Assembly: GCA_002773335.1 (NCBI GenBank)
Contig: PFBH01000014.1
Span: 8,023 to 72,022, forward strand
Direction of reading: 5' to 3'
DNA from: Candidatus Kaiserbacteria bacterium CG10_big_fil_rev_8_21_14_0_10_45_20
GTDB lineage: Bacteria; Patescibacteriota; Minisyncoccia; Phycocordibacterales; Phycocordibacteraceae
DNA length: 64,000 bases
In this document: positions 21,727-59,932 of the stretch, in pieces
Layout of the letters: each line of letters begins with the position of its first letter
How positions within the stretch are numbered: the stretch's first letter is position 1
Made by a program: the position numbers and the translations under genes
The notes under the pieces: model-generated
Database searches by the model: none
Seen by the model: only the letters and a program-made list of their open reading frames with translations
Told to the model about the DNA's origin: nothing

Positions 21727-21753
21727 AAAAAAGCATCATAACGATGCTTTTTT
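21727..21753. terminator. Rho-independent terminator hairpin (GCATC-ATAAC-GATGC followed by a T run), bidirectional
   Basis: Seen in the sequence immediately after the fusA stop. Its other side abuts the stop of the antisense ORF. Confidence 0.6.
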
Positions 21754-22643: not shown

Positions 22644-22651
22644 AAATATAT

Positions 22652-36046: not shown

Positions 36047-37318
36047 ATGGCAGTATTTTTTAAAAAATTAGGACTTGTATTTACCGACGGTAAACTACTG
36101 CGACGCTTAGGGTTTGTCTTTCTCGCACTCTTGGCATTTCGTGTTTTAGCTTCAATCCCCATTCCGGGTGTTGACGCTGTTCAACTTGAACAGTTTTTCT
36201 CGAGCAACCAACTCTTTGGATTTCTCAACATCTTCTCTGGAGGAGGACTCTCAGCGCTCTCTATTGTAATGCTTGGTGTTGGTCCGTACATTACGGCGTC
36301 TATTATCTTGCAGGTGCTCACCATTGTGTTTCCTGCTCTGAAGTCTATGTACCAAGAGGAGGGAGAAATTGGTCGTAAAAAGTTTAACCAGTACGGCAGA
36401 CTCCTTACGGTACCGCTCGCATTTATACAAGGGTTCAGCTTCCTCTTTCTTCTTGAAAGCCAGGGTGTTGTAACATCGCTCTCTGTTTTTGATTTTGCAA
36501 TGAACTTGATCGTTATTGTTTCAGGTTCACTCCTCTTGATGTGGATAGGAGAGCTTATTACCGAGTTTGGTATCGGTAACGGTATTTCGCTCATCATCTT
36601 TGCAGGAATTATCTCTTCATTGCCATCTGTAGTGGCACAGTTGGTGCTATCGTTTGATCCGTCACAGATTCCACTGTACGTATCGTTTGCGGTTGCAGCG
36701 CTCCTTGTTATATACGGCGTGGTATTGATGACTGAGGCAGAGCGACCAGTTCCAGTTACGTACGCAAACCGTTCTCGCGGTGGTAGTAGCCAAAACAGCG
36801 TGGCAACGTACCTCCCGCTTCGACTCAACCAAGCAGGGGTTATTCCGATTATATTTGCACTCTCCATACTGCTCTTCCCGGGACTCATTTTAAACTTTAT
36901 TGCACAGGCAAATATTGCGGTAGTTTCAGGTGTCGCGCAAACACTCCTTACCATCCATGGCGGAGCGATTATCTACGGTATCTTTTACTTCCTCTTAGTG
37001 TTTGCGTTTACCTTTTTCTATACGGCCGTTACCTTTGACCCAAATCAAATGGCAAACAACCTCCAAAAAGGAGGAGCCTTTGTTCCCGGTGTTCGACCAG
37101 GCGGTCAAACATCAGAGTACTTAGGAAGAATTATCACCAGAATTACTTTTGTTGGAGCGATCTTTCTCGGTTCGGTTGCGGTATTGCCACTCATTATGCA
37201 ATCGCTCACCGGCATAACGACACTTGCTATTGGCGGAACAGCTCTCCTTATTGCAGTTTCTGTGATCCTTGATTTGGTGCGAAAAATTGATGCTCAAATC
37301 TCTCTCCGTGAATACTAA
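36047..37318 (+). CDS. secY: Preprotein translocase subunit SecY
   Basis: 423 aa, 10 transmembrane helices, conserved GIGNGISLIIFAGI. Confidence 0.95.
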   Translation: MAVFFKKLGLVFTDGKLLRRLGFVFLALLAFRVLASIPIPGVDAVQLEQFFSSNQLFGFLNIFSGGGLSALSIVMLGVGPYITASIILQVLTIVFPALKSMYQEEGEIGRKKFNQYGRLLTVPLAFIQGFSFLFLLESQGVVTSLSVFDFAMNLIVIVSGSLLLMWIGELITEFGIGNGISLIIFAGIISSLPSVVAQLVLSFDPSQIPLYVSFAVAALLVIYGVVLMTEAERPVPVTYANRSRGGSSQNSVATYLPLRLNQAGVIPIIFALSILLFPGLILNFIAQANIAVVSGVAQTLLTIHGGAIIYGIFYFLLVFAFTFFYTAVTFDPNQMANNLQKGGAFVPGVRPGGQTSEYLGRIITRITFVGAIFLGSVAVLPLIMQSLTGITTLAIGGTALLIAVSVILDLVRKIDAQISLREY

Positions 37319-37340
37319 TTTTTTGTTACACTAAAGATAT

Positions 37341-37907
37341 ATGAGGGGACGTTTTGTTATCGTTGTGGGGCCATCAGGCGCTGGTAAGGGGACGTTGGTT
37401 CGGTATGTGCTTGAGGCGGTCCCTGCCATTTCATACGCGCAGTCATTTGTTACGAGAGGTATGCGTCCCGGAGAGGTCAATGGCGAAATGTACCATTTCG
37501 TCTCTCAAGAAGAGTTTGATAAAAAAATACAGCAAGGAGATTTTTTAGAATGGGCGGAATTTGGTGGTAATTATTACGGAACAGCGCTTTCAAGCGTTAT
37601 GCCTGAGCTTGAAAAAGGCAACATCATTCTCAAAGAGGTTGAGGTGCAGGGGGCTCGTCAAATATTAGAAAAAATTCCACGCAAATCACTCTTTATTATA
37701 TTTATACACGCGGGATCTTGGGGTGCTCTTGAAAAGAGAATTAGGGGGAGAGCGCCTATTTCTGAAGAAGAGGTGGCGAAACGGAAGGGTCGATACGACG
37801 ACGAAATGAGTTTTATACAGAAAGCAGACGTTATTATTGAAAACAATGACGGGTCTATAGAGGTTGCAAAAAAGAAGATACAAGAGGCGGTAGAGTCACT
37901 GCTTTGA
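37341..37907 (+). CDS. gmk: Guanylate kinase
   Basis: GPSGAGKGT P-loop, SFVTRGMRPGEVNGEMYHFVS, FLEWAEF...YYGT. Confidence 0.75.
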   Translation: MRGRFVIVVGPSGAGKGTLVRYVLEAVPAISYAQSFVTRGMRPGEVNGEMYHFVSQEEFDKKIQQGDFLEWAEFGGNYYGTALSSVMPELEKGNIILKEVEVQGARQILEKIPRKSLFIIFIHAGSWGALEKRIRGRAPISEEEVAKRKGRYDDEMSFIQKADVIIENNDGSIEVAKKKIQEAVESLL

Positions 37908-37940
37908 TTTTCATACCGACTTCGGGTATTGTATTGATAT

Positions 37941-38522
37941 ATGAGTACGCCTAAAAGGCTTTTTTTGTTTGTCGGCAGAACCGCATCTGGTAAAGAAACG
38001 CAAAGCCGAAAACTTGCTGAAAAAATAAACGCACCTGTCTTTATGACAGGAGAGCGGTTTCGTGAAATTATCCGTTCCGGAAGCCCATTAGGAGAGAAAA
38101 TCAAAGACGACTACGAAAAGGGGCTTTTGATGCCATCGTGGGTTGCTGATTATATGTTTCAGGACTTCGTATTTAACTTGCGGTACGATAAGAGCGCCGT
38201 TTTTGAGGGGTCCGGTCGAGACAAAAAGCAAGCAGAAGTAGTCGAGGCGGTTACCGAGTGGCTTGGCAGAGAGTACGTTGTTTTTAACCTAGAGGTTTCT
38301 CCAGAGACAGTTATTGCCCGATCGCTCTCTCGACAGCGCGATGCTACTGACGAAGAAGAGGTGATAAAGACGCGCCTTGCAGAGTACGAACGCCTCACTG
38401 CCCCGGCTATTGAGCATTTTCGATCGCTCGGAAAGCTTGTTGATATTGACGGAGAGAATTCACCCGAAGAGGTTCACAGCGAGGTAATGAAGCACATTTC
38501 AGACGATGATTATTCAAACTGA
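37941..38522 (+). CDS. Adenylate-kinase-family nucleoside monophosphate kinase (divergent P-loop GRTASGKETQ)
   Basis: Sits in the adk position of the spc operon with an Adk-like layout. The P-loop is atypical. Confidence 0.5.
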   Translation: MSTPKRLFLFVGRTASGKETQSRKLAEKINAPVFMTGERFREIIRSGSPLGEKIKDDYEKGLLMPSWVADYMFQDFVFNLRYDKSAVFEGSGRDKKQAEVVEAVTEWLGREYVVFNLEVSPETVIARSLSRQRDATDEEEVIKTRLAEYERLTAPAIEHFRSLGKLVDIDGENSPEEVHSEVMKHISDDDYSN

Positions 38523-39276
38523 AGAAGAGAGAGCAATTTTAAGAGAGGGAGGTAAACACCTCGCCTCTATTTTAAAGACGCTCGAGAGTGAACTAAAGCC
38601 CGGTATGAACACGCGAGACATTAACCTCCGTGCCGAAGCGTTGATTGCTCAGTATGGAGACACTCCGGCGCTTAAGGGGTACCACCCACAATTTGCAGAG
38701 CGCGCGTACCCGTCTTCCATATGTGTTTCGGTAAACGATGAGGTGGTGCATGGCATTCCTTCTGAAAATAATATTGTGCTACAAGACGGTGATATTGTCA
38801 GTCTTGACTTGGTCATTATTCACAATGGGTTATTTGTAGACTCTGCCCTGACTGCTCCTGTTGGAGAAATCGACAGCGCCACAAAGCGATTGCTCTCAGC
38901 AACAGAAGAGGCGCTTTTGTTAGGTATACGCCAAGCTCGGACAGGGGCGCGTATGGGCGATATTTCAAGTGCTATTGAAAACAAGGGGTACGAGTGCGGG
39001 TATGGCGTTGTGTATGACTACGGTGGGCACGGTGTCGGGAACGCGGTTCACGAAGAGCCGTCTGTCCCCAACGTAGGCGATCCAGGAAGAGGAATAGTGC
39101 TCCGCGAAGGAATGGTGCTTGCCATAGAGCCAATGTTTAACGAAGGGTCTCCTGAGGTTGTACTGGAGCCTGATGGATACACAATAAAAACCGCTGACGG
39201 AAAAAGAAGCGCGCACTTTGAACACACAATTATTGTTGGAAAGGACGGAGCGGAAATTTTGACACTGCGCGATTAG
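38506..39276 (+). CDS. map: Methionine aminopeptidase type I
   Basis: Pita-bread fold metal ligands in DLVIIHNG, GHGVGNAVHEEP, LAIEPMF, FEHTIIV. Confidence 0.9.
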   Translation: MIIQTEEERAILREGGKHLASILKTLESELKPGMNTRDINLRAEALIAQYGDTPALKGYHPQFAERAYPSSICVSVNDEVVHGIPSENNIVLQDGDIVSLDLVIIHNGLFVDSALTAPVGEIDSATKRLLSATEEALLLGIRQARTGARMGDISSAIENKGYECGYGVVYDYGGHGVGNAVHEEPSVPNVGDPGRGIVLREGMVLAIEPMFNEGSPEVVLEPDGYTIKTADGKRSAHFEHTIIVGKDGAEILTLRD

Positions 39277-39443: not shown

Positions 39444-42311
39444 ATGAAATCGCCAGACGGAGGCAAGCAGTCGCCAGAACATCAACTTAATAAACTGCGA
39501 GAGCAGGCGCGTTCCGGAGGAGGGGGCGGTGGATACAGACCTCAAAAAGTAGGAGGGAGCGATTTTTCAATTACCCCACAGGCAGAGCCAAAACAGGAGA
39601 CCTCGCTTTCACCGGAAGGAGGCGAGGGTGTGGTGTTGGATTTGGTGCCTGATGCTAACGACAAGGATATGGAAGAGCTCCTCGATATCCTCAACACACA
39701 GGGATTCTCGGCGGTAATGAAAGAGCTGGACAGGATAGACAATCCCCATTTAGAGGACGACTTTCACCGACTGCTCGTGCAATACAAGTCCGAGGGGCAC
39801 CCCATCCCCGGATTGAACCCCAAAGACCCGCTTGCAAAAGCACTCGATTTTATATTGCTTGAGGTTTCTGTCCCCGTGATAGCAAAAGAGAAAGGAGGCT
39901 CACTGAAAGACATACTGCAACAAATGGAGCAGTTTTACTTGGCAGTCACCCCGTTTGTGTACCACCCCGACCCAATCTTTTTTAAAGATTTTGCAAAACG
40001 AAAGGTAAATCACCAAGACCACTTTACGGTTGAGGTTGCGGTAACACAGGGTGGAGAAGAGGCGGTTTTTTATATTGCGACCCACCGCGCTCGGAGAGAG
40101 AATGTTGAAAAGCAGTTGCTCTCGGTATTCCCTTCGGCGCGTATCGTAGAAGAGAAGAACGACAACAACATATTCAATCAGTTTGGCTCTGTTTCTTTTT
40201 CATATGGGACACTATTTCGTCCTCCGCCATACCCACTCAAAACAGAAGGGTTTGACTACGACCCAATGAACCTCATACTAGCAGCGCTTGCCAAGGTGTC
40301 AAAAGAAGGAGAGGGGGCTGCGATACAGATATCGGTTGCCGGGGCTGGTGAGTATCACCTCAAGCGTTTTCGAGAAATGTTGAACGAAATCAAAAAGGGA
40401 AAGGTGAAGGCAACCAAGCTGTTTCAAAAACATAAGTACCTCAAAAAGCACCCACTGTGGCGACGTCTCCTCCCTATGTTCAGAGATGATTTTCAGAATT
40501 TTTTAAAATCGGCAGAACAAAAGAAAAAAGAGGGTGAAAAAACTGAGGTGGATGCTGATACCGTGGCGCAGATACAAAAAAAGATGAAGTCGGTTATATT
40601 CGGCGTCAATATCCGACTGGTTACCTCGGCGCGAACAAAAGAACGTTCTGAAGCATTATTGAAAGACCTCGAGGCGTCGTTTGGTCAATTTGAGGATCCG
40701 GTTGGAAACGTTTTCAAGTTTAGACGCCCTAAAACAAAAAAAGCCGAGAGAGACTTTATCCGCTCGTTTATATTTCGTACTTTTGATAGGGCTTCCGACG
40801 AACGCTTTTGGCCACAAATGTGGCGCGAGTTTATTGAAGCTCCGTTGTTTGGAAAGATGCCGGTTGAGATGTCGTACGGCTCTCCCGTTAACCTGCTCAA
40901 CGCTCCAGAGTTGGCGACGGTGCTCCACTTGGCAATATCTGGCTCAACCTCTTCGCGTGAAGCAAAAACCACCAGTGCAAAGCTCGCCCCTGCGCCGGTT
41001 GGACTACCGCAAGAGGGGATACTTTTGGGGCGCAACAAATACGCAAACTCGGTCACCGACATCCACCTCTCTCCTGAGGACCGCTTGCGACACTTCTATA
41101 CCATCGGTCAAACCGGTACCGGTAAAACAAACTTCTTGAAGCAAATGATTATTCAAGACATTGAAAATGGTGACGGCGTCTGCTTCATTGACCCGCACGG
41201 CGTTGACGTACTTGATATTCTTTCGCGCATTCCAAAAGATCGCATTGACGATTTGATTTACTTTGACCCGGCGCATATGGACCGCCCTATGGGTCTCAAT
41301 ATGCTCGAGTACGACCCACGGTTTCCTGAACAGAAAACGTTTGTTGTGGACGAGATGTTTAAGATCTTTAAAAAGCTGTATGGCGATGTTCCCGAAGCGT
41401 TTGGGCCTATTTTTGAGCAGTATTTTAGAAACGCAACGCTCCTTGTTCTTGAAGACCCTGAGACAGGGTCCACCTTACTTGATATATCACGAGTCCTTTC
41501 TGATGAAGATTTCAGAGCGTTAAAGTTGTCTCGCTCTCGAAACCAGGTGGTCAATCACTTCTGGGAAGACATCGCAGAGAACGTGCGTGGAGAGGGTGAT
41601 ATAAGAAACGTGGTGCCATACATTACCTCTAAGTTTGATATCTTTTTGGCAAACGAAATTATGCGCCCTATTGTTGGGCAACAAAGAAGTGCCTTTAATT
41701 TCCAAGACATAATGGATAATAAAAAGATTCTTCTCGTAAACCTCTCAAAGGGGAGGCTCGGCGATTTGAACGCTAACCTCATCGGTTTGGTACTGGTAGG
41801 AAAGATAATGATGACCGCGCTTGCTCGTGCAAGTTACCTACACACAAACCCACCACCGTTTTATCTGTATATGGATGAGTTCCAAAACATTACCACCGAT
41901 ACCGTGTCAACCATTCTCTCTGAAGCGCGAAAGTACCGCCTCTCTCTTACCATGGCGCATCAATTTATTAAACAGTTGCAAGATGGTATATCAAACGCGG
42001 TGTTCGGTAACGTTGGCTCGATGGCGGTATTCCGTGTCGGACCTGATGACGCCGCGTTCTTAGAAAAAATGTATGTTCCAAAATTTGACTCTTCTGATAT
42101 GTTGAACGTTGATAACTATAATGCGTACATCAAAATGCTCGCGAACGGTAAACCAACATCACCATTTTCTATGGAAACAATCGCCTTTCGTTCCGGTGAT
42201 TTTGCACAGATAGATGCGTTAAAACAATTGTCATATCAACGGTATGGAAGGCCACGCAACGCCGTTGATGCTGAAATTGAAGAGAAATACAGAGGTATGC
42301 GGGGTAAGTAA
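39444..42311 (+). CDS. Soluble TraD/VirD4/TrwB-like (type IV coupling protein superfamily, FtsK/HerA clade) P-loop ATPase, 955 aa
   Basis: Walker A YTIGQTGTGKTNF. The Walker B plus arginine region (FYLYMDEFQN...RKYRLSLTMAHQ) matches the TraG/TraD C-terminal NTPase architecture. No transmembrane segments. The N-terminal 480 aa match no family I recognise. Confidence 0.55.
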   Translation: MKSPDGGKQSPEHQLNKLREQARSGGGGGGYRPQKVGGSDFSITPQAEPKQETSLSPEGGEGVVLDLVPDANDKDMEELLDILNTQGFSAVMKELDRIDNPHLEDDFHRLLVQYKSEGHPIPGLNPKDPLAKALDFILLEVSVPVIAKEKGGSLKDILQQMEQFYLAVTPFVYHPDPIFFKDFAKRKVNHQDHFTVEVAVTQGGEEAVFYIATHRARRENVEKQLLSVFPSARIVEEKNDNNIFNQFGSVSFSYGTLFRPPPYPLKTEGFDYDPMNLILAALAKVSKEGEGAAIQISVAGAGEYHLKRFREMLNEIKKGKVKATKLFQKHKYLKKHPLWRRLLPMFRDDFQNFLKSAEQKKKEGEKTEVDADTVAQIQKKMKSVIFGVNIRLVTSARTKERSEALLKDLEASFGQFEDPVGNVFKFRRPKTKKAERDFIRSFIFRTFDRASDERFWPQMWREFIEAPLFGKMPVEMSYGSPVNLLNAPELATVLHLAISGSTSSREAKTTSAKLAPAPVGLPQEGILLGRNKYANSVTDIHLSPEDRLRHFYTIGQTGTGKTNFLKQMIIQDIENGDGVCFIDPHGVDVLDILSRIPKDRIDDLIYFDPAHMDRPMGLNMLEYDPRFPEQKTFVVDEMFKIFKKLYGDVPEAFGPIFEQYFRNATLLVLEDPETGSTLLDISRVLSDEDFRALKLSRSRNQVVNHFWEDIAENVRGEGDIRNVVPYITSKFDIFLANEIMRPIVGQQRSAFNFQDIMDNKKILLVNLSKGRLGDLNANLIGLVLVGKIMMTALARASYLHTNPPPFYLYMDEFQNITTDTVSTILSEARKYRLSLTMAHQFIKQLQDGISNAVFGNVGSMAVFRVGPDDAAFLEKMYVPKFDSSDMLNVDNYNAYIKMLANGKPTSPFSMETIAFRSGDFAQIDALKQLSYQRYGRPRNAVDAEIEEKYRGMRGK

Positions 42312-42557
42312 AAACGTCTGCTCCTCCCATCTCCATAGCAGAGCTGTGAGGCGTTGGGCGAGCAGAACCGGGCGTTTTTGCTGGGATAGGTGCGTCCCGC
42401 CTGCGCTACGCCGTCGGCTTTGGCAGGGCGAGCCGGACGCACTCACCGAACCCGCATACCACTCTCAAGAGCGGTGCGGGATTCAGGGCGACAATTCACC
42501 CTCTTCGCCTTGCTTCGGGCGCTCTTGTCGTCCACCAGTAGATACGTGCTACACTAG

Positions 42558-43169
42558 ATGGCGATGGATATAAAAATAGAACAATCTCTGGTTATTATAA
42601 AGCCAGATGGAGTACAGCGATCGCTTATAGGTGAAATTATTAAACGGTATGAACGTGTTGGCTTAAAAATGGTCGCGCTCAAAATGGTTATTCCATCTGA
42701 AGAGCAGTCAAAAGCTCACTATATGGTGGGAGGAGAAGAGTGGCTTGTTGCGGTAGGAGAAAAGGCCGCCGCCGCGTACGCAAAAAAGGGAGAGAAGTCT
42801 CCATACGCGACCCCTCGTGAAAACGGGCTCGCTATTTTGGCCGCAAATACAAAATATTTAGCCTCTGGTCCGGTTATTGCAATGGTGTGGCAGGGGCATC
42901 AGGCGATAGGGCTCATTCGCAAGATAACAGGAAGCACAGAACCTCTTTCAAGCGACGTAGGGACTATTCGGGGAGACTTTACCCTCGACTCGTACCAACT
43001 TGCCGATACGGGAGACAGGTCTATCCGAAATCTTATTCACGCGTCAGGCGAAGTAGAAGAAGCAAAGAAAGAAATTGCTATCTGGTTTTCTCCGGAAGAA
43101 ATTTTAAGTTACCGCTTGATTGCAGAGCAAATTTTGTACGACGTGAACCTTGACGGCATCTTAGAGTAG
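42558..43169 (+). CDS. ndk: Nucleoside diphosphate kinase (with insertions)
   Basis: SLVIIKPDGV and HASG catalytic His region. Confidence 0.75.
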   Translation: MAMDIKIEQSLVIIKPDGVQRSLIGEIIKRYERVGLKMVALKMVIPSEEQSKAHYMVGGEEWLVAVGEKAAAAYAKKGEKSPYATPRENGLAILAANTKYLASGPVIAMVWQGHQAIGLIRKITGSTEPLSSDVGTIRGDFTLDSYQLADTGDRSIRNLIHASGEVEEAKKEIAIWFSPEEILSYRLIAEQILYDVNLDGILE

Positions 43170-43437
43170 TGTTCGGTTTTATCTTATACACAAAGAATGT
43201 GTATAGTCTGGCTGATGCAGGTGGTACTCTTTAAGTAGGGTTATTGGCATCATTAACTCTAATTAAAGTTCTTAAAAGGGAGTCTTACATCGTCTGCATT
43301 TGGGGAATTTCCGTTTACGGAATACCGATAGTGACAGATTGCGGACACCCACCTAAATATTTTTAGGTTAATGAGAACCCGGTAACCCTCCTAAAAAACC
43401 CCGCTCCGGCGGGATTTTTTAATGGTTAAATGTAGGT

Positions 43438-43818
43438 ATGAAAAGAGACCGAATAGTAAGTGGTGTGAGCATACTTGCCTTGGCAGTCGTTATGACAGCT
43501 CTGCACCTCGGTGCTTATCGTTACTCGCTTTACTTCACGGTTGAGTGGTTTGATATGATGATGCACTTCTTAGGAGGGTTTCTTGTTGGCTCAAGTATTG
43601 GCTGGCTTCTGCGCTTTGAAGTACCGATTGGTTTGCGTTCACTACTGCCAACATTTTGGATAATTATTATCGGGGTTTTAAGTGTGGCGCTTGCGTGGGA
43701 GGCGTTTGAACTTGTAGCAGGAATTGCGCCATCAATCGGGTATCAAAAAGACACTATTGAAGATATAATGTTAGGGCTTATAGGAGCTGTTGTTGCATAT
43801 GGGATATTCAAAAAATAA
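43438..43818 (+). CDS. Small integral membrane protein (about 4 TM), unknown function
   Basis: Hydrophobic profile only. Confidence 0.35.
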   Translation: MKRDRIVSGVSILALAVVMTALHLGAYRYSLYFTVEWFDMMMHFLGGFLVGSSIGWLLRFEVPIGLRSLLPTFWIIIIGVLSVALAWEAFELVAGIAPSIGYQKDTIEDIMLGLIGAVVAYGIFKK

Positions 43819-45196
43819 ATCAGCGTCAATTACGTTTGTGCGAGGAGCACGTCAGGTAACGGGCTCTAATTTTTTACTCACCGTGCAGGCTCAAAATGGA
43901 AAGAAGGTAAACGTTCTTGTTGATTGCGGACTGACGCAAGGTGCCCGTTTTTGTGAATCCAAAAACAGTGTACCGTTTCCGTACACTGCATCAGAGATTG
44001 ACGCAGTGTTTGTTACACACGCGCATGCCGACCATATAGGACTGCTTCCAAAGTTACTTAAAGAGGGATTTGACGGACCTATCTACACAACAGCACCCAC
44101 AAAAGACCTCATTCCGATAATGTTAGAAGACAGCGTAACCCTCATTAACAGAGAGGCGAAGTCGTGCAACGAAGATCCTCCGTACTCAAAAGAGGACGTG
44201 GTAAATGTAAGCAAAAAGCTTACTGAAGTTGCGTACAGGCAAACAGTAGATATCGCTCCAGAGTTTTCGTGTACCGTATACAATGCAGGGCACATTGTCG
44301 GCTCTGCCACGTTTCTTTTTGATATTTCAGGAACTCGTATACTTTTTACGGGTGATTTAGGTCGGCGTGACGCCATACTGGTGCCCGAGAGAGATATTCC
44401 ACCGCACCCGATTCATTACTTGGTCACCGAGAGTGTGTATGGAAACAGAGTGCACGAAGACGGCGAGGCGAGTGAAATTGATCTTCAGAACGCTATTTCG
44501 TGGGTTCATAAAAAAAACGGAGTGCTCCTCATTCCGGCATTCTCGCTTGAACGGACCCAAATTATTTTAAGCCTCCTTCAAAAACTGATAGAGACAAAAA
44601 AAGTTCCACCAATTCCGGTGTATATGGACTCTCCCTTGGCAGCTAAGGTGACCGAGGTGTATCGGTCTCACCCAGATTTTTTAATTGACGAAGTAAAGCA
44701 AGATATACAGAAAGGAGGTGATCCGTTCTCGTTCCCTTTACTTACCGTTACGCAAAGCAAAGAAGAGTCTGAAGAGGCCCTTCGTGCCTCTACCCCAAAG
44801 GTTATTATCGCCGGCGCCGGTATGAGCCATGGAGGAAGGATTCGAACCCATGAGGCCGAGTTTTTGCCTGATGACACCACATTACTGCTCTTGGTAGGGT
44901 ACCAAACCCCCGGATCTTTAGGGCGTCGACTGAAAGATGGTGCAAAGAAGGTAAAAATAAACTGGAAAGACGTCAAGGTGCGGGCAGTCGTGCGTTCAAC
45001 GGGAGGTTTTTCTGCCCACGCCGACAGAGATGACTTGGTAAGTTTCGCGGAGGCGGTTGCCCCTCAAAAAGCATTTGTTGTATTAGGAGAGATGGAATCT
45101 GCTTCATTTCTTGCGCAACGCATTTCTGGGTTTTTAGGTATTGAAGCCGACATACCGCAAGAGGGAGAGGTGGTAGATATTCCACTTATTGGATAA
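43790..45196 (+). CDS. MBL-fold beta-CASP family ribonuclease (RNase J/CPSF-like)
   Basis: VFVTHAHADHIG (HxHxDH) and beta-CASP motifs (LVTESVYG, GFSAHAD). Confidence 0.7.
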   Translation: MLHMGYSKNKSASITFVRGARQVTGSNFLLTVQAQNGKKVNVLVDCGLTQGARFCESKNSVPFPYTASEIDAVFVTHAHADHIGLLPKLLKEGFDGPIYTTAPTKDLIPIMLEDSVTLINREAKSCNEDPPYSKEDVVNVSKKLTEVAYRQTVDIAPEFSCTVYNAGHIVGSATFLFDISGTRILFTGDLGRRDAILVPERDIPPHPIHYLVTESVYGNRVHEDGEASEIDLQNAISWVHKKNGVLLIPAFSLERTQIILSLLQKLIETKKVPPIPVYMDSPLAAKVTEVYRSHPDFLIDEVKQDIQKGGDPFSFPLLTVTQSKEESEEALRASTPKVIIAGAGMSHGGRIRTHEAEFLPDDTTLLLLVGYQTPGSLGRRLKDGAKKVKINWKDVKVRAVVRSTGGFSAHADRDDLVSFAEAVAPQKAFVVLGEMESASFLAQRISGFLGIEADIPQEGEVVDIPLIG

Positions 45197-45238
45197 AATA
45201 AAAAAACCGAGCAGTACTCGGTTTTATTTACGGGTTTC

Positions 45239-45586
45239 TTAAGAGACTTTCTTTACAAGTCTTTCAAACGCGTCGGGGTTTTCTTTTGCAAGATCAGCAA
45301 GCACTTTTCTGTTAAGCGCAATACCTGCCTTTTTTAGTGTATCGATAAAGGTGCTGTAGTTTTTAAAACCAAGCGCGCGAACACCTGCATTAACCGAGAT
45401 AATCGCGTCAGAGCGCATAACACGCTTCTTTGCCTTTCGGTCACGAAACGCGTACTTACCTGCGTGCACAATTGCCTCTTTCGCAGCTTTCTTCTTTTTA
45501 GATCGTGCAAAACGGTACCCCTTTGTCATTGAAAGGATGTTCTTTCGTCGTTTGATTGCTTTTGGTCCTCCTTTTACGCGTGCCAT
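45239..45586 (-). CDS. rplT: 50S ribosomal protein L20
   Basis: [18 protein letters not shown]. Confidence 0.9.
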
Positions 45587-45626
45587 ATGTCAGTTATTAG
45601 TTGTTAGAAAAAAGTAGAATATATTA

Positions 45627-45818
45627 CTATGCTCCTGATCCGGCAAGAAATCGTGCTCGGTCTTTTGGTTTCATTTCGATTACTCGAGATCGTCGCTTTA
45701 CCGTTTTGGTTTTACGAGATTCTTTTGCGTTAAAGTGATTCTGCCCTGATTTTCGGGCAATAATCTTTCCCTTTCGAGTAACGCGTAATCGTTTTGTATA
45801 TGATTTATTTGTTTTCAT
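45627..45818 (-). CDS. rpmI: 50S ribosomal protein L35
   Basis: MKTNKSYTKRLRVTRKGKI. Confidence 0.85.
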   Translation of the reverse strand: MKTNKSYTKRLRVTRKGKIIARKSGQNHFNAKESRKTKTVKRRSRVIEMKPKDRARFLAGSGA

Positions 45819-45885
45819 ATGCTCAACATCAGGGGAGTGGTGTGCTCGAAACGAGCAAAAACCCTCTCTACTCCAGATTGGAGAT

Positions 45886-46452
45886 TTATACCATATCTGT
45901 AGGTTTTATGCCAGTTTTCTTCTCTTTTGGCGCCTTCTTTTTTCCTTCGCGCTCAAGAACGAGGTAAAAGCCTTTTGGACCCTTCTTTATATCTTCGGCA
46001 ATTTTGTATTCTTCAGGAACAAGGAGCACAAAGCGCATAAGCCGTTCTTTGAGGAAATTTTGGTCCATATACTTATATCGACCCTTCAAAAAGAGCTCTA
46101 CCTTTACTCGGTGCCCCTCACGAAGCCACTCTGCCGATTGACGAGCCTTACGGGTAAGGTCATGTTCGCCGGTCACTACCTCTACCTGTACCGCCTTTGT
46201 CTCTGTGTGGTGCGCTTTTGCTTTTACATCACGCTCTTTCTTTTTTTCTTGGTATTGAAATTTTCCATAGTCCATAATTTTGGCTATAGGAGGCTTCGCT
46301 TTAGGAGATATTTCTATAAGGTCGAGAGACGACTCTTTGGCACGACGAAGCGCCTCTTCAAGAGAGACAATGCCAATATTGTCTCCGGTGGGACCAATAA
46401 CACGAAGTTCTTGGGCTCGGATTTGTTCGTTTATTCTGGTTCTCTGTTTCAA
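45886..46452 (-). CDS. infC: Translation initiation factor IF-3
   Basis: INEQIRAQELRVIGPTGDNIGIVS and a C-terminal domain. The true start may be a non-AUG codon, as is usual for infC. Confidence 0.85.
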   Translation of the reverse strand: MKQRTRINEQIRAQELRVIGPTGDNIGIVSLEEALRRAKESSLDLIEISPKAKPPIAKIMDYGKFQYQEKKKERDVKAKAHHTETKAVQVEVVTGEHDLTRKARQSAEWLREGHRVKVELFLKGRYKYMDQNFLKERLMRFVLLVPEEYKIAEDIKKGPKGFYLVLEREGKKKAPKEKKTGIKPTDMV

Positions 46453-46495
46453 AGCGTTGTAGCGGTATTCTAACGCGTGATTGACTCTTTTACAA

Positions 46496-46549
46496 CCACC
46501 TCCACAATCACAAATACCCCTTGCGGGGTATTTGTGATTGTGGAGGTGG
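46496..46549. repeat. Perfect 25 bp-stem hairpin that also copies the last nucleotides of ssrA plus its terminator. It is a direct repeat of 46827-46879.
   Basis: CCACCTCCACAATCACAAATACCCC-TTGC-GGGGTATTTGTGATTGTGGAGGTGG. The right arm recurs exactly at 46855-46879. Confidence 0.8.
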
Positions 46550-46869
46550 AAGGTGGCGTCAGCTCACTCAGTATTTTGTTTCGCTCGATAGTTCGCTCAC
46601 AAAATACTGAGTGGCTCCTGCCCGGGCTCGTCCGTCGCAGGGCGGCATGACTCCGCCTTTCATTCCCCCACGAAAGCCAAGCAGTTGGCTTTCTCCACTG
46701 CGTTTGAAATCTGTTAAGCGCTCGCGACCCCGGCTCGGCTTTTCTCTTTCGCAGGAAAATACAACGAAAGAGAAATATACCTCCGCCCGGTTCATTCCCC
46801 ACGCACAGTGCGCAGGCACTGTGCTCCCACCACCCAATAAAAATACCCCTTGCGGGGTATTTGTGATTG

Positions 46870-47257
46870 TGGAGGTGGGGGGGAATGAACCCCCGTCCGA
46901 AAAGGGTCTTTGGGACGACTCTACAAAGCGTAGTTCTTTTTTTCACCGTGAAGTGAATTTAAGTATTAGTGTATAAAACGAACAAAAGAAGCTAATACCG
47001 AGCTCTCAATTTTCGAGAAGTTGTACGAGCAAAAAACTTCCTTATTCCGACTATATTACACCGGGTATCTCACTGTCAGAAAGAGTGAGATTCGATGCTG
47101 CTTAGGCTAAAGCGTAAGCAGGAGCACCTACGAACTGAGCGTAAGGGCTCTTAACAAGTGATTTTACACTTTGGGTTACTCGAGATTTTAGGTGTTCTCG
47201 AGCATTCACCGCTTTGCACGAAACAAAGGTGACCTTCCGTCAAAACTAGTCACCCCC
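46870..47257 (-). ncRNA. ssrA: tmRNA (ssrA), standard one-piece form
   Basis: The minus-strand 5' end GGGGGTGACTAGTTTTGACGG matches the tmRNA consensus GGGGnUGA...UUCGACGG. The 3' end GGACGGGGGTTCATTCCCCC-CACCTCC-A is a T-arm plus acceptor strand that pairs with the 5' end (one G.U pair). An internal tag reading frame ends ...GAPAYALA-TAA. A terminator hairpin follows immediately. Located just downstream of smpB. Confidence 0.8.
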
Positions 47258-47354: not shown

Positions 47355-47798
47355 TTATTCTCCTTTCAATGTTCTGTCTATGTGGCGTTTCGTATCTTTT
47401 GCTTTCAATAGCGCACGTTTATCATACCTCTTTTTGTGTCGCGCTACAGCAAATTCCAACTTTACCTTCCTGTTACCATTATACCACTTTATCGGGATAA
47501 TTGTCAACCCTCTCTTCCCGTCTTGTTCTGCAAGTTCAAGAATCTCTTTTTTTGAAAGAAGCAGTCGGCGTGCCCGTTCAGGGTCGTATGATGCAGGCGT
47601 GTTCTTTTCTTGATATGGAGATATCGAAGCTCCAACCAGAAACACTTCACCTCCTCGCACTAATACACGAGCTCCAAGCAAAGAAGCTTTTCCTGCACGA
47701 ATGGCTTTTACTTCATACCCAAAAAGCTCTGCTCCTGCAGAGTACGTTTCAAGAAATTCATAGTCAAAATGCGCCTTTTTGTTTTCTACAAATGCCAT
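47355..47798 (-). CDS. smpB: SsrA-binding protein SmpB
   Basis: MAFVENKKAHFDYEFLETYSAGAELFGYEVKAIR is the conserved SmpB N-terminus. Confidence 0.9.
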   Translation of the reverse strand: MAFVENKKAHFDYEFLETYSAGAELFGYEVKAIRAGKASLLGARVLVRGGEVFLVGASISPYQEKNTPASYDPERARRLLLSKKEILELAEQDGKRGLTIIPIKWYNGNRKVKLEFAVARHKKRYDKRALLKAKDTKRHIDRTLKGE

Positions 47799-50741: not shown

Positions 50742-50816
50742 CCGCCCTTAGCTCAATTGGTTAGAGCATCTAGCTTATACCTAGAAGGTTTCCTGGTTCG
50801 AGTCCAGGAGGGCGGA
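50742..50816 (+). tRNA. tRNA with anticodon UAU (Ile, reading AUA), no encoded CCA
   Basis: Acceptor stem CCGCCCT/AGGGCGG, D-arm GCTC-AATTGGTTA-GAGC, anticodon arm TCTAG-CTTATAC-CTAGA, T-arm CCTGG-TTCGAGT-CCAGG. The variable loop appears to be 6 nt, so the fold has one irregularity. Confidence 0.6.
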
Positions 50817-51282
50817 CATGATAGAGAAAAGCAAACTGCTTTGCTTTTCTCGATACATGTCCGAGCCGGAGCCATGTTTTTCCAGCAGGAAAAACAGGCG
50901 AGGCGGGGTCGCGGAATTTTGCGAGTGACTGACGAGCAAAATATCCGTGACGACCAGACAGAAATATCCCGCCTGCGCGGGATTTTCTGCGTCAGTCCGA
51001 GGCACAGGGTTGTGTGAGTTTGAGCGAAGCGAAAGGCGAACACCCCGAGCCGGGGTCACCACAAGAGTACTTCTATTTCTCTAATTCGATGACTCATAAG
51101 AGAAATTGGTCGCGCGAAAAATTTCCGTTAGGAAATTTATTTGTGACGACCAGATACAAATATCCCGCCTGCGCACTGTTTTTGTTTACATGTCCGAGCC
51201 GTACCACACGGGCACTTCACAAACGTGTGCAAAAAATCATTGTAGTGGCAATAACACATAACATCCTATATCATAGCTGTAT

Positions 51283-55663: not shown

Positions 55664-56246
55664 AGAGTGCGGGATGTGTCTTCGCTACGCTCGCACGCAT
55701 CGGTCACAGATATTTTGTTCGCCGTCGCTCACAAAATTCCGCGCGACCAATTTCTCTTACGAGTCTGCGAGTTAGAGAAATGGAAGTACTCTTGTGGTGA
55801 CCCTGTCTCGCGACCCATTCTGCTGAATGGGTACCCTGCTCCGGCTTTCGCGACTTTGTTTTGTTACGAACGAAGTGAGTTAGAAAACAAGAAGTGCCCG
55901 TGTGGTACGACTTTGTTTTGTTACGAACGAAGTGAGTTAGAAAACAAGAAGTGCCCGTGTGGTGAATCCCGACGTAAAGCACGCAGGTGCTTTACTCACT
56001 CTCCGCAGTATACTCACTGCGCTCGAATCTGCGGAGAGTGCGGGATGTGTCTTCGCTACGCTCGCACGCATCGGTCAGGAATAATTTGCTCGTCAGTCAC
56101 TCGCAAATTTTCACGACCCTGGCTCGTCTGTTTTTTCTGCTGAAAAAACATGACTGCGCCTTTCGAATCCCGACGTAAAGCACGCAGGTGCTTTACTCAC
56201 TCTCCGCAGTATACTCACTGCGCTCGAATCTGCGGAGAGTGCGGGA
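55664..56246. repeat. Array of long direct repeats seeded from the 3' end of tRNA-Ser: an 82 bp direct repeat (55965-56046 and 56165-56246), a 44 bp direct repeat (55664-55707 and 56034-56077) and a 57 bp tandem duplication (55851-55907 and 55908-55964)
   Basis: Exact string matches seen in the sequence. The last copy runs into the tRNA-Ser 3' end. Confidence 0.8.
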
Positions 56247-56319
56247 TTCGAACCCGCGAGGGCGGTTAAGCCCTACCTCGTTAGCAGTGAGGCGCTTTCG
56301 ACCACTCAGCCAACTCTCC
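56233..56319 (-). tRNA. tRNA-Ser (anticodon GCU), long variable arm
   Basis: The reverse complement gives GGAGAGT acceptor, anticodon loop CTGCTAA, a 19 nt variable arm, T-arm GCGGG-TTCGAAT-CCCGC, and 3' ACTCTCC-G. Confidence 0.8.
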
Positions 56320-56445: not shown

Positions 56446-57102
56446 TTAGTGCGCTAGCGCTATTCCGATAACTTCTTTTGCGCCTGCCTCAAGGAGGGCA
56501 CGACGCGCGTCTTTTAGTGTCGCGCCGGTTTCTGACACGTCGTCTACCACAATACAGCACTCACCCGAGACGAGCTGTCTTTGCGCTTCATCGTTCGTGA
56601 CAAAAAATGCACGAGACACATTCTCGACACGTTTTTTCTTTTCGGTGCGAAGTTGGCTTGGTCTCTCTTTTCTCTTTAATACATTGGGCGTGTATCGTAC
56701 CGACGTTTCTATAAAGGGAAGTGCGTACTCAACTATTCTTTCAACTTGATTATACCCGCGCTTTCTCTTGCGTTTTGCTGAAGAAGGGATAGGAACGAGA
56801 AGCGGTCGTCGCCACTCAAGGTCAAGCGCGCGTTCTTCAAGGGCGTTCAGCACCATATCGGACATACACAGACCAAGAATCTGAGACGCTTTCTTTGTTC
56901 CATAAAATTTGTTTGCACGGATGAGCGATTGAATATCTTGGTCGCGGTATGAAAATCCGACAAAAATCCACGGGAGAGGCTTGGCACGCACAATCAGTTT
57001 TTCTCGTACCGTATCGATGGTAATGGCGCGAATACGTACCACATCTTTTGGTGGAGGAAAAAAGAAGTCTATAATGGAAGAGACGAGTGTAGGTGCGTGC
57101 AT
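56446..57102 (-). CDS. comF: ComF-family protein (phosphoribosyltransferase-type, competence)
   Basis: C-terminal PRTase motif CIVVDDVSETGATL. Sits next to the type IV pilus genes. Confidence 0.6.
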   Translation of the reverse strand: MHAPTLVSSIIDFFFPPPKDVVRIRAITIDTVREKLIVRAKPLPWIFVGFSYRDQDIQSLIRANKFYGTKKASQILGLCMSDMVLNALEERALDLEWRRPLLVPIPSSAKRKRKRGYNQVERIVEYALPFIETSVRYTPNVLKRKERPSQLRTEKKKRVENVSRAFFVTNDEAQRQLVSGECCIVVDDVSETGATLKDARRALLEAGAKEVIGIALAH

Positions 57103-57127
57103 GGTATACTCGTCTTATTCTACGCCC

Positions 57128-58237: not shown

Positions 58238-58314
58238 TAAAAACTATTAAGTCTTTTCCACTGCCACCGTGGCACAACAGGAAACAGAGTTTTCTATAGT
58301 GATACACTTACCAT

Positions 58315-59869: not shown

Positions 59870-59932
59870 GGGTCGTGCGAGGTGGATGAAATACCTCACG
59901 CAATCTTCATTAGTCTAGTATTATAAAAACAA

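What the first reader, a model, noticed from the sequence alone, without database searches (positions are those of the whole stretch)
39444..42311. Soluble 955 aa TraD/VirD4-like ATPase where infA-rpmJ-rpsM-rpsK-rpsD-rpoA-rplQ are expected
After map the ribosomal superoperon normally continues with infA, rpmJ, rpsM, rpsK, rpsD, rpoA and rplQ. Here a large gene follows instead. It encodes a FtsK/HerA-superfamily P-loop NTPase whose C-terminal half resembles the NTPase domain of conjugative coupling proteins (TraD/TrwB/VirD4): Walker A GQTGTGKT, Walker B LYMDEFQN, and the arginine block RKYRLSLTMAHQ. It has no transmembrane anchor and no relaxase or T4SS partners nearby. The N-terminal 480 aa match no family I recognise. 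This genome has two type IV pilus/competence loci and a split ComEC, so this ATPase may be a DNA translocation motor recruited to the pilus-based DNA-uptake pathway. That link is an inference only.
Basis: partly seen in the sequence, partly recalled or inferred. Interest (0 to 1): 0.6.

Follow-up and report, generated by a model that had tools for sequence, protein, structure and literature searches.

The report
Orphan VirB4-like/coupling-protein ATPase of Paceibacteria
The large gene after map is a real, very strongly conserved core gene of one big group of ultra-small (CPR) bacteria: an ATP-driven ring motor of the conjugation "coupling protein" type, and its previously unexplained front half is predicted to fold like the docking domain of VirB4, the other type IV secretion ATPase.

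Summary
ORF 39444-42311 (+) encodes 955 aa with all three quoted motifs. It has no transmembrane helix and follows secY-gmk-adk-map directly.

The interpretation needs revision in four ways.
2. It is not a local insertion. At least 437 species-representative Paceibacteria/Parcubacteria genomes carry it. In 45 of 57 loci with enough flank it sits right after map. Its ATPase half is more conserved (70% mean identity) than SecY (62.5%) or IF3 (66%).
3. Shorter relatives (~800 aa) carry one N-terminal membrane helix. They usually have a small upstream ORF that appears homologous to the N-terminal helical module fused in this protein.
4. Linkage to type IV pili or competence genes is weak: 2 of 7 short-form loci, and none of the 80 scanned long-form loci within 8 kb.

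Best reading: a membrane-proximal hexameric translocation ATPase that docks through a VirB4-like domain, probably on the patescibacterial T4SS. An FtsK-like or DNA-uptake role is not excluded. I rate it a new variant of a known kind, of moderate to high interest.

The parts
39444..42311 (+). Complete gene: 955-aa long-form DUF8128 + T4CP-type ATPase
   Evidence: ORF listing and translation. The exact protein occurs on public contigs with the annotation PF26449 DUF8128 + PF02534. More than 1,000 homologues were found.
39444..39653 (+). N-terminal tail, aa 1-70: Gly/Pro/Ser-rich and predicted disordered, apart from a short helix at aa 11-22 that holds the semi-conserved 'SPE..L..LRE' stretch
   Evidence: pLDDT is 32-57 over this stretch. 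Conservation is low except for R19.
39660..39791 (+). Three-helix module, aa 73-116, with the near-invariant motif NPHLEDDFHRLL (aa 100-111). In short-form relatives it is encoded as a separate small upstream ORF.
   Evidence: pLDDT is 81-92 with helices at 73-86, 88-98 and 101-116. H102, D106 and H108 are invariant. hhalign of five small upstream ORFs (A3) against the N-terminal alignment (A1) gives E 9.3e-5 and 59% probability, mapping to aa 74-115. BLAST gives E 4e-5.
39828..40943 (+). DUF8128 core, aa ~129-500: alpha/beta domain with a predicted VirB4 N-terminal-domain-like fold
41019..42188 (+). T4CP-type (TrwB/VirD4/TraD-like) ATPase domain, aa ~526-915: Walker A at 41106-41129, Walker B at 41865-41888, Arg/sensor block at 41928-41963, and an all-alpha insertion at aa ~629-760 (41328-41723)
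   Evidence: Pfam hits above cut-off. NCBIfam TraD/VirD4 hits are partial and far below their cut-offs. Foldseek matches TrwB at E 2e-11 with TM 0.62-0.66 normalised to TrwB, plus Cag-beta, DotL and HerA. Motif columns are invariant.
42204..42308 (+). C-terminal two-helix tail, aa 921-955, with the conserved 'LKQLSYQRYGR' stretch
   Evidence: Helices at 921-934 and 938-953. S930 and G935 are invariant; K927, Y931 and R938 are nearly so. Its function was not tested.
36047..39276 (+). Conserved upstream context: secY, gmk, adk, map (3' end of the spc ribosomal operon)
   Evidence: Pfam. The same order is seen in relatives. Map lies just upstream on the same strand in 45 of 57 loci with enough flank.
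42558..46452 (.). Conserved downstream context: ndk (+), DUF2238 (+), beta-CASP RNase J-like (+), rplT (-), rpmI (-), infC (-)
   Evidence: Pfam and called genes on identical contigs. ndk lies downstream on the same strand in 36 of 53 loci with enough flank.

Best explanation
What it is. This part is well supported; I put it at about 0.85. The gene is a chromosomal, vertically inherited core gene of the CPR class Paceibacteria (Parcubacteria, Minisyncoccia). It encodes a two-domain ATPase. The N-terminal domain (Pfam DUF8128) is predicted to fold like the N-terminal domain of VirB4. The C-terminal domain is a ring-forming P-loop motor of the T4SS coupling-protein type (TrwB/VirD4/TraD), with an all-alpha insertion and intact catalytic motifs. 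The window protein is the 'long' form. In it, the single N-terminal membrane helix seen in shorter relatives is replaced by a disordered tail plus a three-helix module. In those shorter relatives the module is a separate small protein encoded just upstream.

How it most likely works. This part is inference and sets the confidence given below. The protein assembles into a hexameric ring at the cytoplasmic face of the membrane. The VirB4-like domain docks it onto VirB3/VirB8-type membrane subunits, or onto the N-domains of the genuine VirB4, of the chromosomal relaxase-less T4SS that most Patescibacteria carry elsewhere in the genome. The docking domain would do the job that two transmembrane helices do in classical coupling proteins. 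ATP hydrolysis in the T4CP-type ring then feeds or energises transfer of a substrate (DNA or protein) through that envelope machine. The fused three-helix module acts as a built-in adaptor or regulator.
For: Shown here:
- T4CP Pfam models pass their cut-offs on aa 538-871.
- The full-length model aligns over both domains with R388 TrwK/VirB4 (E 1e-15, about 940 columns). Its C-half aligns with TrwB (TM 0.62-0.66 normalised to TrwB).
- Catalytic residues are invariant in 66 sequences.
- At least 437 species-representative genomes carry the long form, all Patescibacteria and, where named to clade, Parcubacteria/Paceibacteria lineages. DUF8128 occurs in 1,953 clusters at 50% identity.
- Synteny after map holds in 45 of 57 loci.
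- The ATPase half averages 70% identity, against SecY 62.5%, IF3 66%, L20 58% and Map 50% in the same loci.
- No copy was found on viral contigs.
- All 10 independent short-form clusters have an N-terminal transmembrane helix, against 0 of 113 long forms. This argues for action at the membrane.
- A small upstream ORF is present in 5 of 7 short-form loci and is homologous to aa 74-115.
- One short form is followed by a VirB2-like pilin protein with two hydrophobic helices (Pfam T4SS_pilin, faint).
- The closest non-CPR relatives of the C-half are T4CP-like ATPases of monoderm and archaeal plasmids: Streptomyces, Bacillus, Staphylococcus, haloarchaea, Sulfolobus pNOB8.

From the literature:
- 2,417 of 3,035 Patescibacteria genomes have a VirB4-based, MPF-FATA-related T4SS without a relaxase.
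- 5,713 VirD4-like T4CP homologues occur in 2,918 genomes. Only 148 lie near virB4, and exaptation was suggested (PMC12102498).
- VirB4-N-domain-like TrsD proteins are common parts of that system (PMC12102498).

From general knowledge of the R388 structures (7o42, 8rtd): the VirB4 N-domain contacts VirB3 and the VirB8 tails and mediates VirB4 dimerisation.
Against: - No T4SS gene lies next to the gene in the window. None was found among the relatives' neighbourhoods that carry Pfam annotation, nor among the large neighbouring ORFs of relocated long forms that were scanned.
- Whether this genome has a T4SS could not be checked.
- In the one genetically tested patescibacterium, the saccharibacterium Southlakia, the T4SS is essential. 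Its cluster lacks a recognisable coupling protein (PMC10633639), and the unlinked T4CP homologue was reported as non-essential (PMC12102498). It is unknown whether that homologue belongs to this family.
- Conservation exceeding that of SecY is unusual for coupling proteins and fits a housekeeping role at least as well.
- The VirB4 resemblance rests on AlphaFold models (pLDDT 76-79) and one solved VirB4 family. No sequence similarity to VirB4 or TrsD N-domains was detectable.
Confidence: 0.4

Rival explanations
1. FtsK-like housekeeping translocase. The ring motor pumps chromosomal DNA or resolves trapped DNA at cell division or segregation. It would stand in for, or complement, FtsK in these reduced genomes. 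The VirB4-like domain or the membrane helix would tether it to the division or envelope machinery.
For: - It has core-gene behaviour: class-wide vertical inheritance, fixed position in the ribosomal superoperon, and an ATPase half more conserved than SecY or IF3.
- Short forms have the FtsK-like layout of an N-terminal membrane anchor followed by a motor.
- Short-form loci lie beside division or envelope genes. An FtsQ-like POTRA_1 gene is in L088 and L095, mraZ-rsmH-PBP in L096, and MreC in L094.
- RmuC, a DNA recombination gene, is adjacent in 2 of 7 short-form loci.
Against: - The FtsK_SpoIIIE Pfam score is 13.2 bits against a cut-off of 24.
- The best sequence and structure matches are T4CPs and VirB4, not FtsK.
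- No FtsK gamma or winged-helix domain was detected.
- L088 and L095 may represent one lineage, so the division-gene linkage rests on very few independent cases.
- Whether Paceibacteria lack FtsK was not testable here. Saccharibacteria do have FtsK (PMC10768705 mentions it for TM7x).
Confidence: 0.2
2. The ATPase is a DNA-translocation motor recruited to the type IV pilus / ComEC DNA-uptake pathway. It pulls incoming DNA into the cell, possibly to feed nucleotide salvage.
For: - The Wolfebacteria short form lies 1.3 kb from comFC and a pilM-pilO-pilB-pilT-pilC-pilin-pilD cluster.
- Another short form is followed by rmuC, with a pilin/PilC/PilB locus 2.3 kb away.
- The window itself holds two T4P loci, ComEC and a ComFC-like gene.
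- The gene is flanked by nucleotide-salvage enzymes: gmk, adk, ndk and an RNase J-like nuclease.
Against: - No T4P, comFC or comEC homologue lies within 8 kb in any of the 80 scanned long-form loci. Only 2 of 7 short-form loci have one.
- In the window the distances are 14 kb (ComFC/PilM) and 25 kb (ComEC). With several such loci in a genome of under 1 Mb, chance gives this easily.
- adk and map are universal members of the spc operon.
- To my knowledge, known competence machines use ComFA or PilT-type motors, not T4CPs.
- ComEC is dispensable for growth in Southlakia (PMC12102498, PMC12857230).
Confidence: 0.12
3. Defence-system or other orphan ATPase. It would belong to the scattered soluble T4CP-like ATPases that act in anti-phage or conflict systems, such as MADS mad8 or HerA-type partners.
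For: - PADLOC mad8 matches at E 8e-10 over aa 549-851.
- The closest non-CPR relative of the C-half with an N-terminal extension is a 708-aa protein (33% identity, E 9e-66). It has an unrelated N-terminus and lies on a non-mobilizable Bradyrhizobium plasmid beside CHAT and TPR proteins.
- 281 of 410 plasmid hits are on non-mobilizable plasmids.
Against: - Defence genes are patchy, fast-evolving and island-borne. This gene is class-wide, syntenic with ribosomal genes and slower-evolving than SecY.
- No defence partners are adjacent.
Confidence: 0.05
4. Remnant of an integrated conjugative element or plasmid that happened to land after map in this genome.
For: It has T4CP-type sequence signatures, and it interrupts the usual continuation of the ribosomal superoperon.
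Against: - The same junction is conserved down to 33% N-domain identity in dozens of species.
- GC content matches the surroundings.
- There is no relaxase, integrase or repeat context.
- The gene is absent from viral contigs.
- Purifying selection is very strong.
Confidence: 0.02

Closest known systems
Type IV coupling proteins (TrwB of R388, VirD4, TraD/TraG, PcfC, TrsK)
   Same: - Walker A and B motifs and the Arg/sensor block.
- A RecA-like core with an all-alpha insertion.
- Pfam T4SS-DNA_transf, TrwB_AAD_bind and TraG-D_C all score above their cut-offs.
- Foldseek TM of 0.62-0.66 normalised to TrwB.
- Short-form relatives are anchored to the membrane at the N-terminus.
   Different: - A roughly 400-aa VirB4-like domain lies between the N-terminus and the motor.
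- This protein has no transmembrane segment. Short forms have one helix rather than the usual two.
- There is no relaxase or T4SS linkage.
- It is vertically inherited, class-wide and far more conserved than plasmid T4CPs.
- NCBIfam TraD/VirD4 equivalog scores are far below their cut-offs (44 against 366; 27 against 250).
VirB4 ATPases (TrwK of R388; PDB 7o42, 7o43, 8rtd)
   Same: - An overall two-domain layout of about 800-950 aa, soluble, with an N-domain followed by the ATPase.
- The best full-length Foldseek hits are VirB4 chains, E 1e-15.
   Different: - No VirB4 Pfam model (for example CagE_TrbE_VirB or AAA_10) appears even at E up to 1.
- N-domain sequence identity is about 7-9%.
- The C-half scores as a T4CP, not as VirB4.
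- It is not in a virB3/virB6/virB8 cluster. Published patescibacterial virB4 genes sit near dnaA/dnaN (PMC12102498), whereas this gene sits after map.
Orphan T4CP-like ATPases of plasmids and chromosomes in Alphaproteobacteria, Actinobacteria, Bacillota, haloarchaea and Sulfolobus (for example WP_247904195 of Bradyrhizobium p131_1)
   Same: The C-half shares up to 33% identity over 86-98% of its length (E 4e-62 to 9e-66). This is much closer than the match to TrwB.
   Different: Their N-terminal regions are unrelated to DUF8128 (hhalign probability below 1%). They occur patchily on accessory replicons.
FtsK/SpoIIIE and HerA (other branches of the same P-loop superfamily)
   Same: They share the ring-translocase fold. 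HerA matches in Foldseek at E 6e-11. Short forms share the FtsK layout of a membrane anchor followed by a motor.
   Different: Scores are below the Pfam cut-offs for both families. No HerA HAS-barrel or FtsK gamma domain was detected.
EccE of mycobacterial ESX (type VII) systems
   Different: The similarity is much weaker. EccE is not fused to an ATPase. This was not examined further.

Membership tests
Pfam DUF8128 (PF26449) | Match to the family HMM | tested here: met
   The precomputed Pfam hit on this exact protein is listed without a 'weak' or 'faint' mark, meaning E is at most 1e-5. The same hit is present on nearly all of the 120 listed homologues. The model is missing from the local Pfam copy, so the bit score could not be compared with the cut-off directly.
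Type IV coupling protein (VirD4/TraD/TrwB) | P-loop nucleotide-binding domain matching T4CP HMMs above curated cut-offs | tested here: met
   T4SS-DNA_transf scores 31.7 bits (cut-off 20.1), TrwB_AAD_bind 24.5 (20.5) and TraG-D_C 24.6 (22). The Walker A, Walker B and Arg block columns are invariant.
Type IV coupling protein (VirD4/TraD/TrwB) | All-alpha domain inserted in the nucleotide-binding domain | tested here: inconclusive
   The model shows a roughly 130-residue all-helical insertion at aa 629-760, between Walker A and Walker B. TM normalised to TrwB is 0.62-0.66. This rests on a prediction only. The TrwB_AAD_bind HMM aligns only aa 538-586.
Type IV coupling protein (VirD4/TraD/TrwB) | N-terminal transmembrane anchor | tested here: not met
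   No segment reaches a Kyte-Doolittle mean of 1.8, and the maximum of 1.65 lies inside the ATPase core. None of 113 long forms has an N-terminal transmembrane helix, whereas all 10 short-form clusters have one.
Type IV coupling protein (VirD4/TraD/TrwB) | Genetic association with a relaxase and/or mating-pair-formation genes | tested here: not met
   None was found in the window ORFs scanned. None appears in the Pfam-annotated neighbourhoods of relatives or among the large neighbouring ORFs of relocated long forms that were scanned. The only hint is a VirB2-like pilin neighbour in one short-form locus.
Type IV coupling protein (NCBIfam equivalogs TraD, VirD4-CD1115, TrbC) | Score above the equivalog cut-off | tested here: not met
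   SXT_TraD scores 44 against 366, conj_TOL_TraD 28 against 648, and conju_CD1115 27 against 250.
VirB4 | N-terminal VirB4-type domain followed by a C-terminal ATPase domain, in a soluble protein | tested here: met
VirB4 | Match to VirB4 sequence models (CagE_TrbE_VirB, AAA_10, TraC_F_IV) | tested here: not met
   No such family is listed at E up to 1. The only NCBIfam VirB4 hit is VirB4_plasma at 18.8 bits against a cut-off of 590. hhalign against pSK41 TrsE aligns only the Walker A region.
VirB4 | Located in a cluster with virB3, virB6 and virB8-like genes | tested here: not met
   The context is ribosomal and nucleotide-kinase genes.
FtsK/SpoIIIE | FtsK_SpoIIIE motor HMM above cut-off; gamma domain | tested here: not met
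   The score is 13.2 bits against a cut-off of 24, covering aa 537-570 only.
HerA | HerA central domain (DUF87) above cut-off, with an N-terminal HAS barrel | tested here: not met
   DUF87 scores 21.3 against 23.2. NCBIfam helicase_HerA scores 11 against 970. The N-domain is VirB4-like, not a barrel.

The most novel reading that the evidence does not exclude
The family is a surviving 'hybrid' of the two T4SS ATPase lineages: a membrane anchor or adaptor, then a VirB4-type N-domain, then a coupling-protein-type motor. It has been fixed as an essential housekeeping gene of a whole bacterial class and works outside conjugation. It might be the motor that brings host-derived nucleic acid or protein through the patescibacterial envelope machine to feed salvage, given that it is flanked by gmk, adk, ndk and an RNase J-like nuclease. 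Alternatively it might be a functional replacement for FtsK. On this reading it would also show what the common ancestor of VirB4 and T4CPs looked like.
Probability: 0.2. Interest if true: 0.85.

Novelty: new variant of a known kind. Interest (0 to 1): 0.6.

Why it matters
Patescibacteria make up a large share of bacterial diversity, and how they live on their hosts is largely unknown. Their T4SS is the only one shown to be essential for growth, yet it has no recognised coupling protein in its cluster. A published survey noted thousands of unlinked 'T4CP homologues' without explaining them.

This analysis shows four things about one such family. It is a class-wide core gene, and its motor half is more conserved than SecY. 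It carries a VirB4-like docking domain. It exists in membrane-anchored and soluble, fused versions. It has a small dedicated partner module. These features give concrete, testable handles: which membrane proteins the DUF8128 domain binds, and what the ring translocates. They also bear on how the VirB4 and T4CP families diverged.

Tried and rejected
- Mobile-element origin. Rejected on synteny, GC content, absence of a relaxase or integrase, and no hit in IMG/VR.
- FtsK proper or HerA. Both score below their Pfam cut-offs.
- Sequence-level link of DUF8128 to VirB4 or TrsD. hhalign against pSK41 TrsD found nothing, and against TrsE only the Walker A region aligned. A profile search of PDB sequences returned only a weak uL5 C-terminal hit (E 0.028). 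That hit is echoed by Pfam (E 0.049) and NCBIfam (E 0.075). I treat it as a chance beta-alpha motif.
- Small upstream ORFs as a split-off N-terminal module. Single-sequence hhalign tests for L086 and L088 failed. L092 alone gave E 0.004. The five-sequence profile gave E 9.3e-5. I therefore keep the idea as moderately supported.
- A conserved neighbour for relocated long forms or for short forms. All-against-all clustering found none. Pfam on large neighbours found only housekeeping genes.
- orf109 (42244-42573), which overlaps the 3' end of the gene. It is not conserved outside identical contigs, so I treat it as spurious.
- The promoter and terminator scan around the gene was uninformative. 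Rfam found no RNA element next to it.
- The supplementary tables of PMC12102498 did not contain the contig names I searched. I could not confirm that the authors counted this family among their T4CP hits.
- The AFDB fold libraries were unavailable.
- Literature searches for DUF8128 and PF26449 returned nothing.
- Whether Paceibacteria lack FtsK could not be settled from the literature.


Full report
OBSERVATION

The ORF at 39444-42311 (+) is real. It encodes 955 aa. The three quoted motifs are present at aa 555-562 (GQTGTGKT), 808-815 (LYMDEFQN) and 829-840 (RKYRLSLTMAHQ). They occupy columns that are invariant in a 66-sequence family alignment.

The gene follows SecY, guanylate kinase, adenylate kinase and Map on the same strand. 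It is followed by NDK, a DUF2238 protein and a beta-CASP RNase J-like protein, then by rplT, rpmI and infC on the opposite strand. rpsD and rplQ were not queried. The protein has no transmembrane segment.

The window does hold two type IV pilus loci. One is PilB/PilC/pilins at 1592-8378. The other is PilM/PilO/PilB/response regulator/PilT at 56981-63178. It also holds a split ComEC (12795-14174 plus an MBL ORF at 14788-15615) and a ComFC-like gene at 56446-57102 (-). No relaxase or T4SS gene was found among the window ORFs scanned.

WHAT THE TWO HALVES ARE

C-half (aa ~526-915). Three T4CP Pfam models pass their curated cut-offs: T4SS-DNA_transf, TrwB_AAD_bind and TraG-D_C. FtsK_SpoIIIE and DUF87 do not. 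NCBIfam TraD/VirD4 equivalogs match only partially and far below their cut-offs.

In the full-length AlphaFold model (pLDDT 78.9) this half superposes on TrwB with TM 0.62-0.66 normalised to TrwB. It also matches Cag-beta, DotL and HerA. An all-helical insertion lies between Walker A and Walker B.

By tblastn, the closest relatives outside the CPR are T4CP-like ATPases on plasmids of Alphaproteobacteria, Streptomyces, Bacillus, Staphylococcus, haloarchaea and Sulfolobus. The best share 33% identity at E 4e-62. These are far closer than TrwB itself, and 281 of 410 hits lie on non-mobilizable plasmids. A 708-aa Bradyrhizobium example shares only the motor; its N-terminus is unrelated.

N-half. 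Public annotation of this exact protein and of its homologues gives Pfam DUF8128 (PF26449). That model is missing from the local Pfam copy, which is why one search showed nothing there. No paper in the searchable library mentions DUF8128 or PF26449.

The full-length model's best PDB matches are full-length TrwK/VirB4 chains of R388 (E 1e-15), aligned over about 940 columns and so across both domains.

A separate model of aa 71-530 (pLDDT 76, pTM 0.79) gave these results:
- In Foldseek, the ten best hits were all TrwK/VirB4 chains. Every other hit was at E 0.03 or worse.

Neither list contains a RecA-type ATPase, so the match must be to the VirB4 N-terminal domain. At the sequence level nothing links DUF8128 to VirB4 or TrsD.

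The protein therefore combines VirB4 architecture with a coupling-protein-type motor.

DISTRIBUTION, SYNTENY AND SELECTION

- More than 1,000 homologues were found. The best 120 are full-length at 46-84% identity and come from Patescibacteria.
- A scan of one genome per species found at least 437 species carrying the long form. Where the organisms are named to clade, they belong to Parcubacteria/Paceibacteria lineages: Kaiser-, Nomura-, Campbell-, Taylor- and Zambryskibacteria. Many MAGs are labelled only 'Saccharibacteria' but share this synteny, so I regard those labels as unreliable. That scan used motifs specific to the long form, so it under-samples other forms.
- A profile search found DUF8128 in 1,953 clusters at 50% identity.
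- The order secY-(gmk)-adk-map-[gene]-ndk-DUF2238-RNase J is conserved down to 33% N-domain identity. Map lies directly upstream in 45 of 57 loci with enough flank. ndk lies downstream in 36 of 53.
- Across 45 loci the ATPase half averages 70% identity to the window protein. That compares with 62.5% for SecY, 66% for IF3, 58% for L20 and 50% for Map. The N-half averages 44%.
- No relative occurs on IMG/VR viral contigs.
- Where the long form has moved away from map, its large scanned neighbours are ordinary housekeeping genes and no partner is conserved.

This is a vertically inherited core gene, not a mobile-element remnant.

TWO ARCHITECTURES AND A SPLIT-OFF MODULE

Full-length family members fall into two classes.
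- Long forms (~900-990 aa, including the window protein) have a disordered tail and a three-helix module with the motif NPHxEDDFHRLL. None of 113 has a membrane helix.
- Short forms (~790-860 aa; 10 independent clusters, including Wolfebacteria) begin with a single strong transmembrane helix directly before DUF8128.

In 5 of 7 short-form loci a 129-162-aa ORF lies immediately upstream on the same strand. In one case it overlaps the ATPase start by 4 nt. The C-terminal ~40 residues of these ORFs ('KG..A......NP..ID..HD.L') align with aa 74-115 of the window protein. The evidence is profile-profile E 9.3e-5 at 59% probability, BLAST E 4e-5, and single-sequence tests that were weak or negative.

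The simplest reading is a fusion or fission. The long form is the small partner fused to the ATPase, with the membrane helix lost. That implies the family acts at the membrane, and that the three-helix module is a dedicated adaptor or regulator.

CONTEXT CLUES TO FUNCTION

The seven short-form loci are heterogeneous.
- comFC plus a full T4P cluster lies 1.3 kb away in Wolfebacteria.
- rmuC is adjacent and a T4P locus lies 2.3 kb away in L092.
- rmuC appears again in L096, together with mraZ-rsmH-PBP.
- FtsQ-like POTRA_1 genes are nearby in L088 and L095.
- MreC and RecJ are nearby in L094.
- A 673-aa protein with a VirB2-like two-helix pilin segment lies directly downstream in L093.

No virB4 is adjacent anywhere. 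None of the 80 scanned long-form loci has a T4P or competence gene within 8 kb. Each of these associations rests on one to three independent cases, so none is decisive.

LITERATURE

- Quinonero-Coronel et al. 2025 (PMC12102498) found VirB4 in 2,417 of 3,035 Patescibacteria genomes. The system is a relaxase-less, MPF-FATA-related T4SS, often near dnaA/dnaN.
- The same study found VirB4-N-domain-like TrsD proteins to be the most abundant component.
- It also found 5,713 VirD4-like T4CP homologues in 2,918 genomes, of which only 148 lie near virB4. The authors raised possible exaptation. This family is very probably among those hits, though I could not confirm that from their tables.
- Wang et al. 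2023 (PMC10633639) showed that the Southlakia T4SS is essential but has no recognisable coupling protein in its cluster.

MECHANISM

Shown:
- an intact T4CP-type motor;
- a VirB4-like N-domain, by prediction;
- core-gene status across the class;
- membrane-anchored relatives;
- a fused partner module.

Inferred: the protein forms a hexameric ring at the inner face of the membrane. It docks through the VirB4-like domain to VirB3/VirB8-type subunits, or to VirB4 itself, of the patescibacterial T4SS. In this way it supplies the 'missing' coupling or energising ATPase. I give this reading a probability of 0.4.

Rivals:
- an FtsK-like housekeeping DNA translocase (0.2);
- a defence-type orphan ATPase (0.05);
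- a mobile-element remnant (0.02).

VERDICT

The protein family is catalogued only as a DUF and, implicitly, as a 'T4CP homologue'. Four features appear undescribed: the VirB4-like N-domain, conservation above SecY, the anchored-versus-fused dichotomy, and the small partner module.

Novelty: new variant of a known kind. Interest: 0.6.

Noticed in passing
L086:9602-9997, L088:9479-9967, L092:9615-10004, L095:9574-9999, L096:6137-6529 (related loci): Small ORFs of 129-162 aa lie directly upstream of the membrane-anchored short-form ATPases. Their C-terminal ~40 residues are homologous to aa 74-115 of the window protein, which suggests a gene fusion or fission (hhalign E 9.3e-5).
   Followed up: partly
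window 40563-40682 (aa ~374-413 of the ATPase): A beta-strand/helix stretch ('IFGVNIRLVTSARTKERSEALLKDLEASF') gives three weak, independent hits to the C-terminus of ribosomal protein uL5: Pfam E 0.049, NCBIfam E 0.075 and PDB 9i5t E 0.028. It is probably a chance structural motif, but it is curious for a gene that sits in the ribosomal operon.
   Followed up: no
window 21752-23740: A low-GC stretch (0.41 against about 0.455) with strongly negative AT skew lies between fusA and tuf. It carries two minus-strand ORFs (183 and 362 aa) with no Pfam match, interrupting the str operon.
   Followed up: no
window 12795-15615: ComEC is split. The DUF4131 and Competence domains are at 12795-14174. The metallo-beta-lactamase domain is a separate ORF at 14788-15615. 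A minus-strand Fe/Mn superoxide dismutase gene (14171-14749) lies between them.
   Followed up: partly
window 37341-37907 and 42558-45196: Nucleotide-salvage genes surround the ATPase. gmk is inserted between secY and adk, ndk follows directly after the ATPase, and a beta-CASP RNase J-like nuclease lies further downstream. This arrangement is conserved in relatives.
   Followed up: partly
window 46867-47257 (-): A tmRNA gene (Rfam 94 bits) lies next to an unscanned ORF (47355-47798, -) at the position where the syntenic locus L001 has SmpB. The mechanical ORF at 46470-46946 (-) overlaps the tmRNA and is spurious.
   Followed up: yes
window 50742-50817 (+): A tRNA-Ile gene has a UAU anticodon. 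The only other tRNA in the 64 kb is tRNA-Ser(GCU) at 56232-56319 (-).
   Followed up: no
window 61697-62104: A stand-alone response-regulator receiver gene lies between pilB (59933-61690) and pilT (62111-63178) in the second pilus locus.
   Followed up: no
L005:6519-9607: In one relative (GCA_013565675.1) an HTH transposase-like gene, an unknown ORF and a reverse transcriptase (RVT_1) are inserted between map and the ATPase gene. The junction therefore tolerates insertions while the gene itself is kept.
   Followed up: no
L091:7044-9170 (Bradyrhizobium sp. 131 plasmid p131_1): A 708-aa protein shares the motor domain at 33% identity (E 9e-66). It has an unrelated ~320-aa N-terminus and sits among CHAT-domain and TPR proteins. 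It is a possible conflict-system relative of the motor.
   Followed up: partly
L093:12558-14579: Directly downstream of a short-form ATPase lies a 673-aa secreted or membrane protein. It has a VirB2/TrbC-like pair of hydrophobic helices (Pfam T4SS_pilin, faint) and a large extracellular C-terminal region.
   Followed up: partly
window 42244-42573: A 109-aa ORF overlaps the 3' end of the ATPase gene and the start of ndk. It has no family match and no conservation outside identical contigs, so it is probably not a gene.
   Followed up: yes
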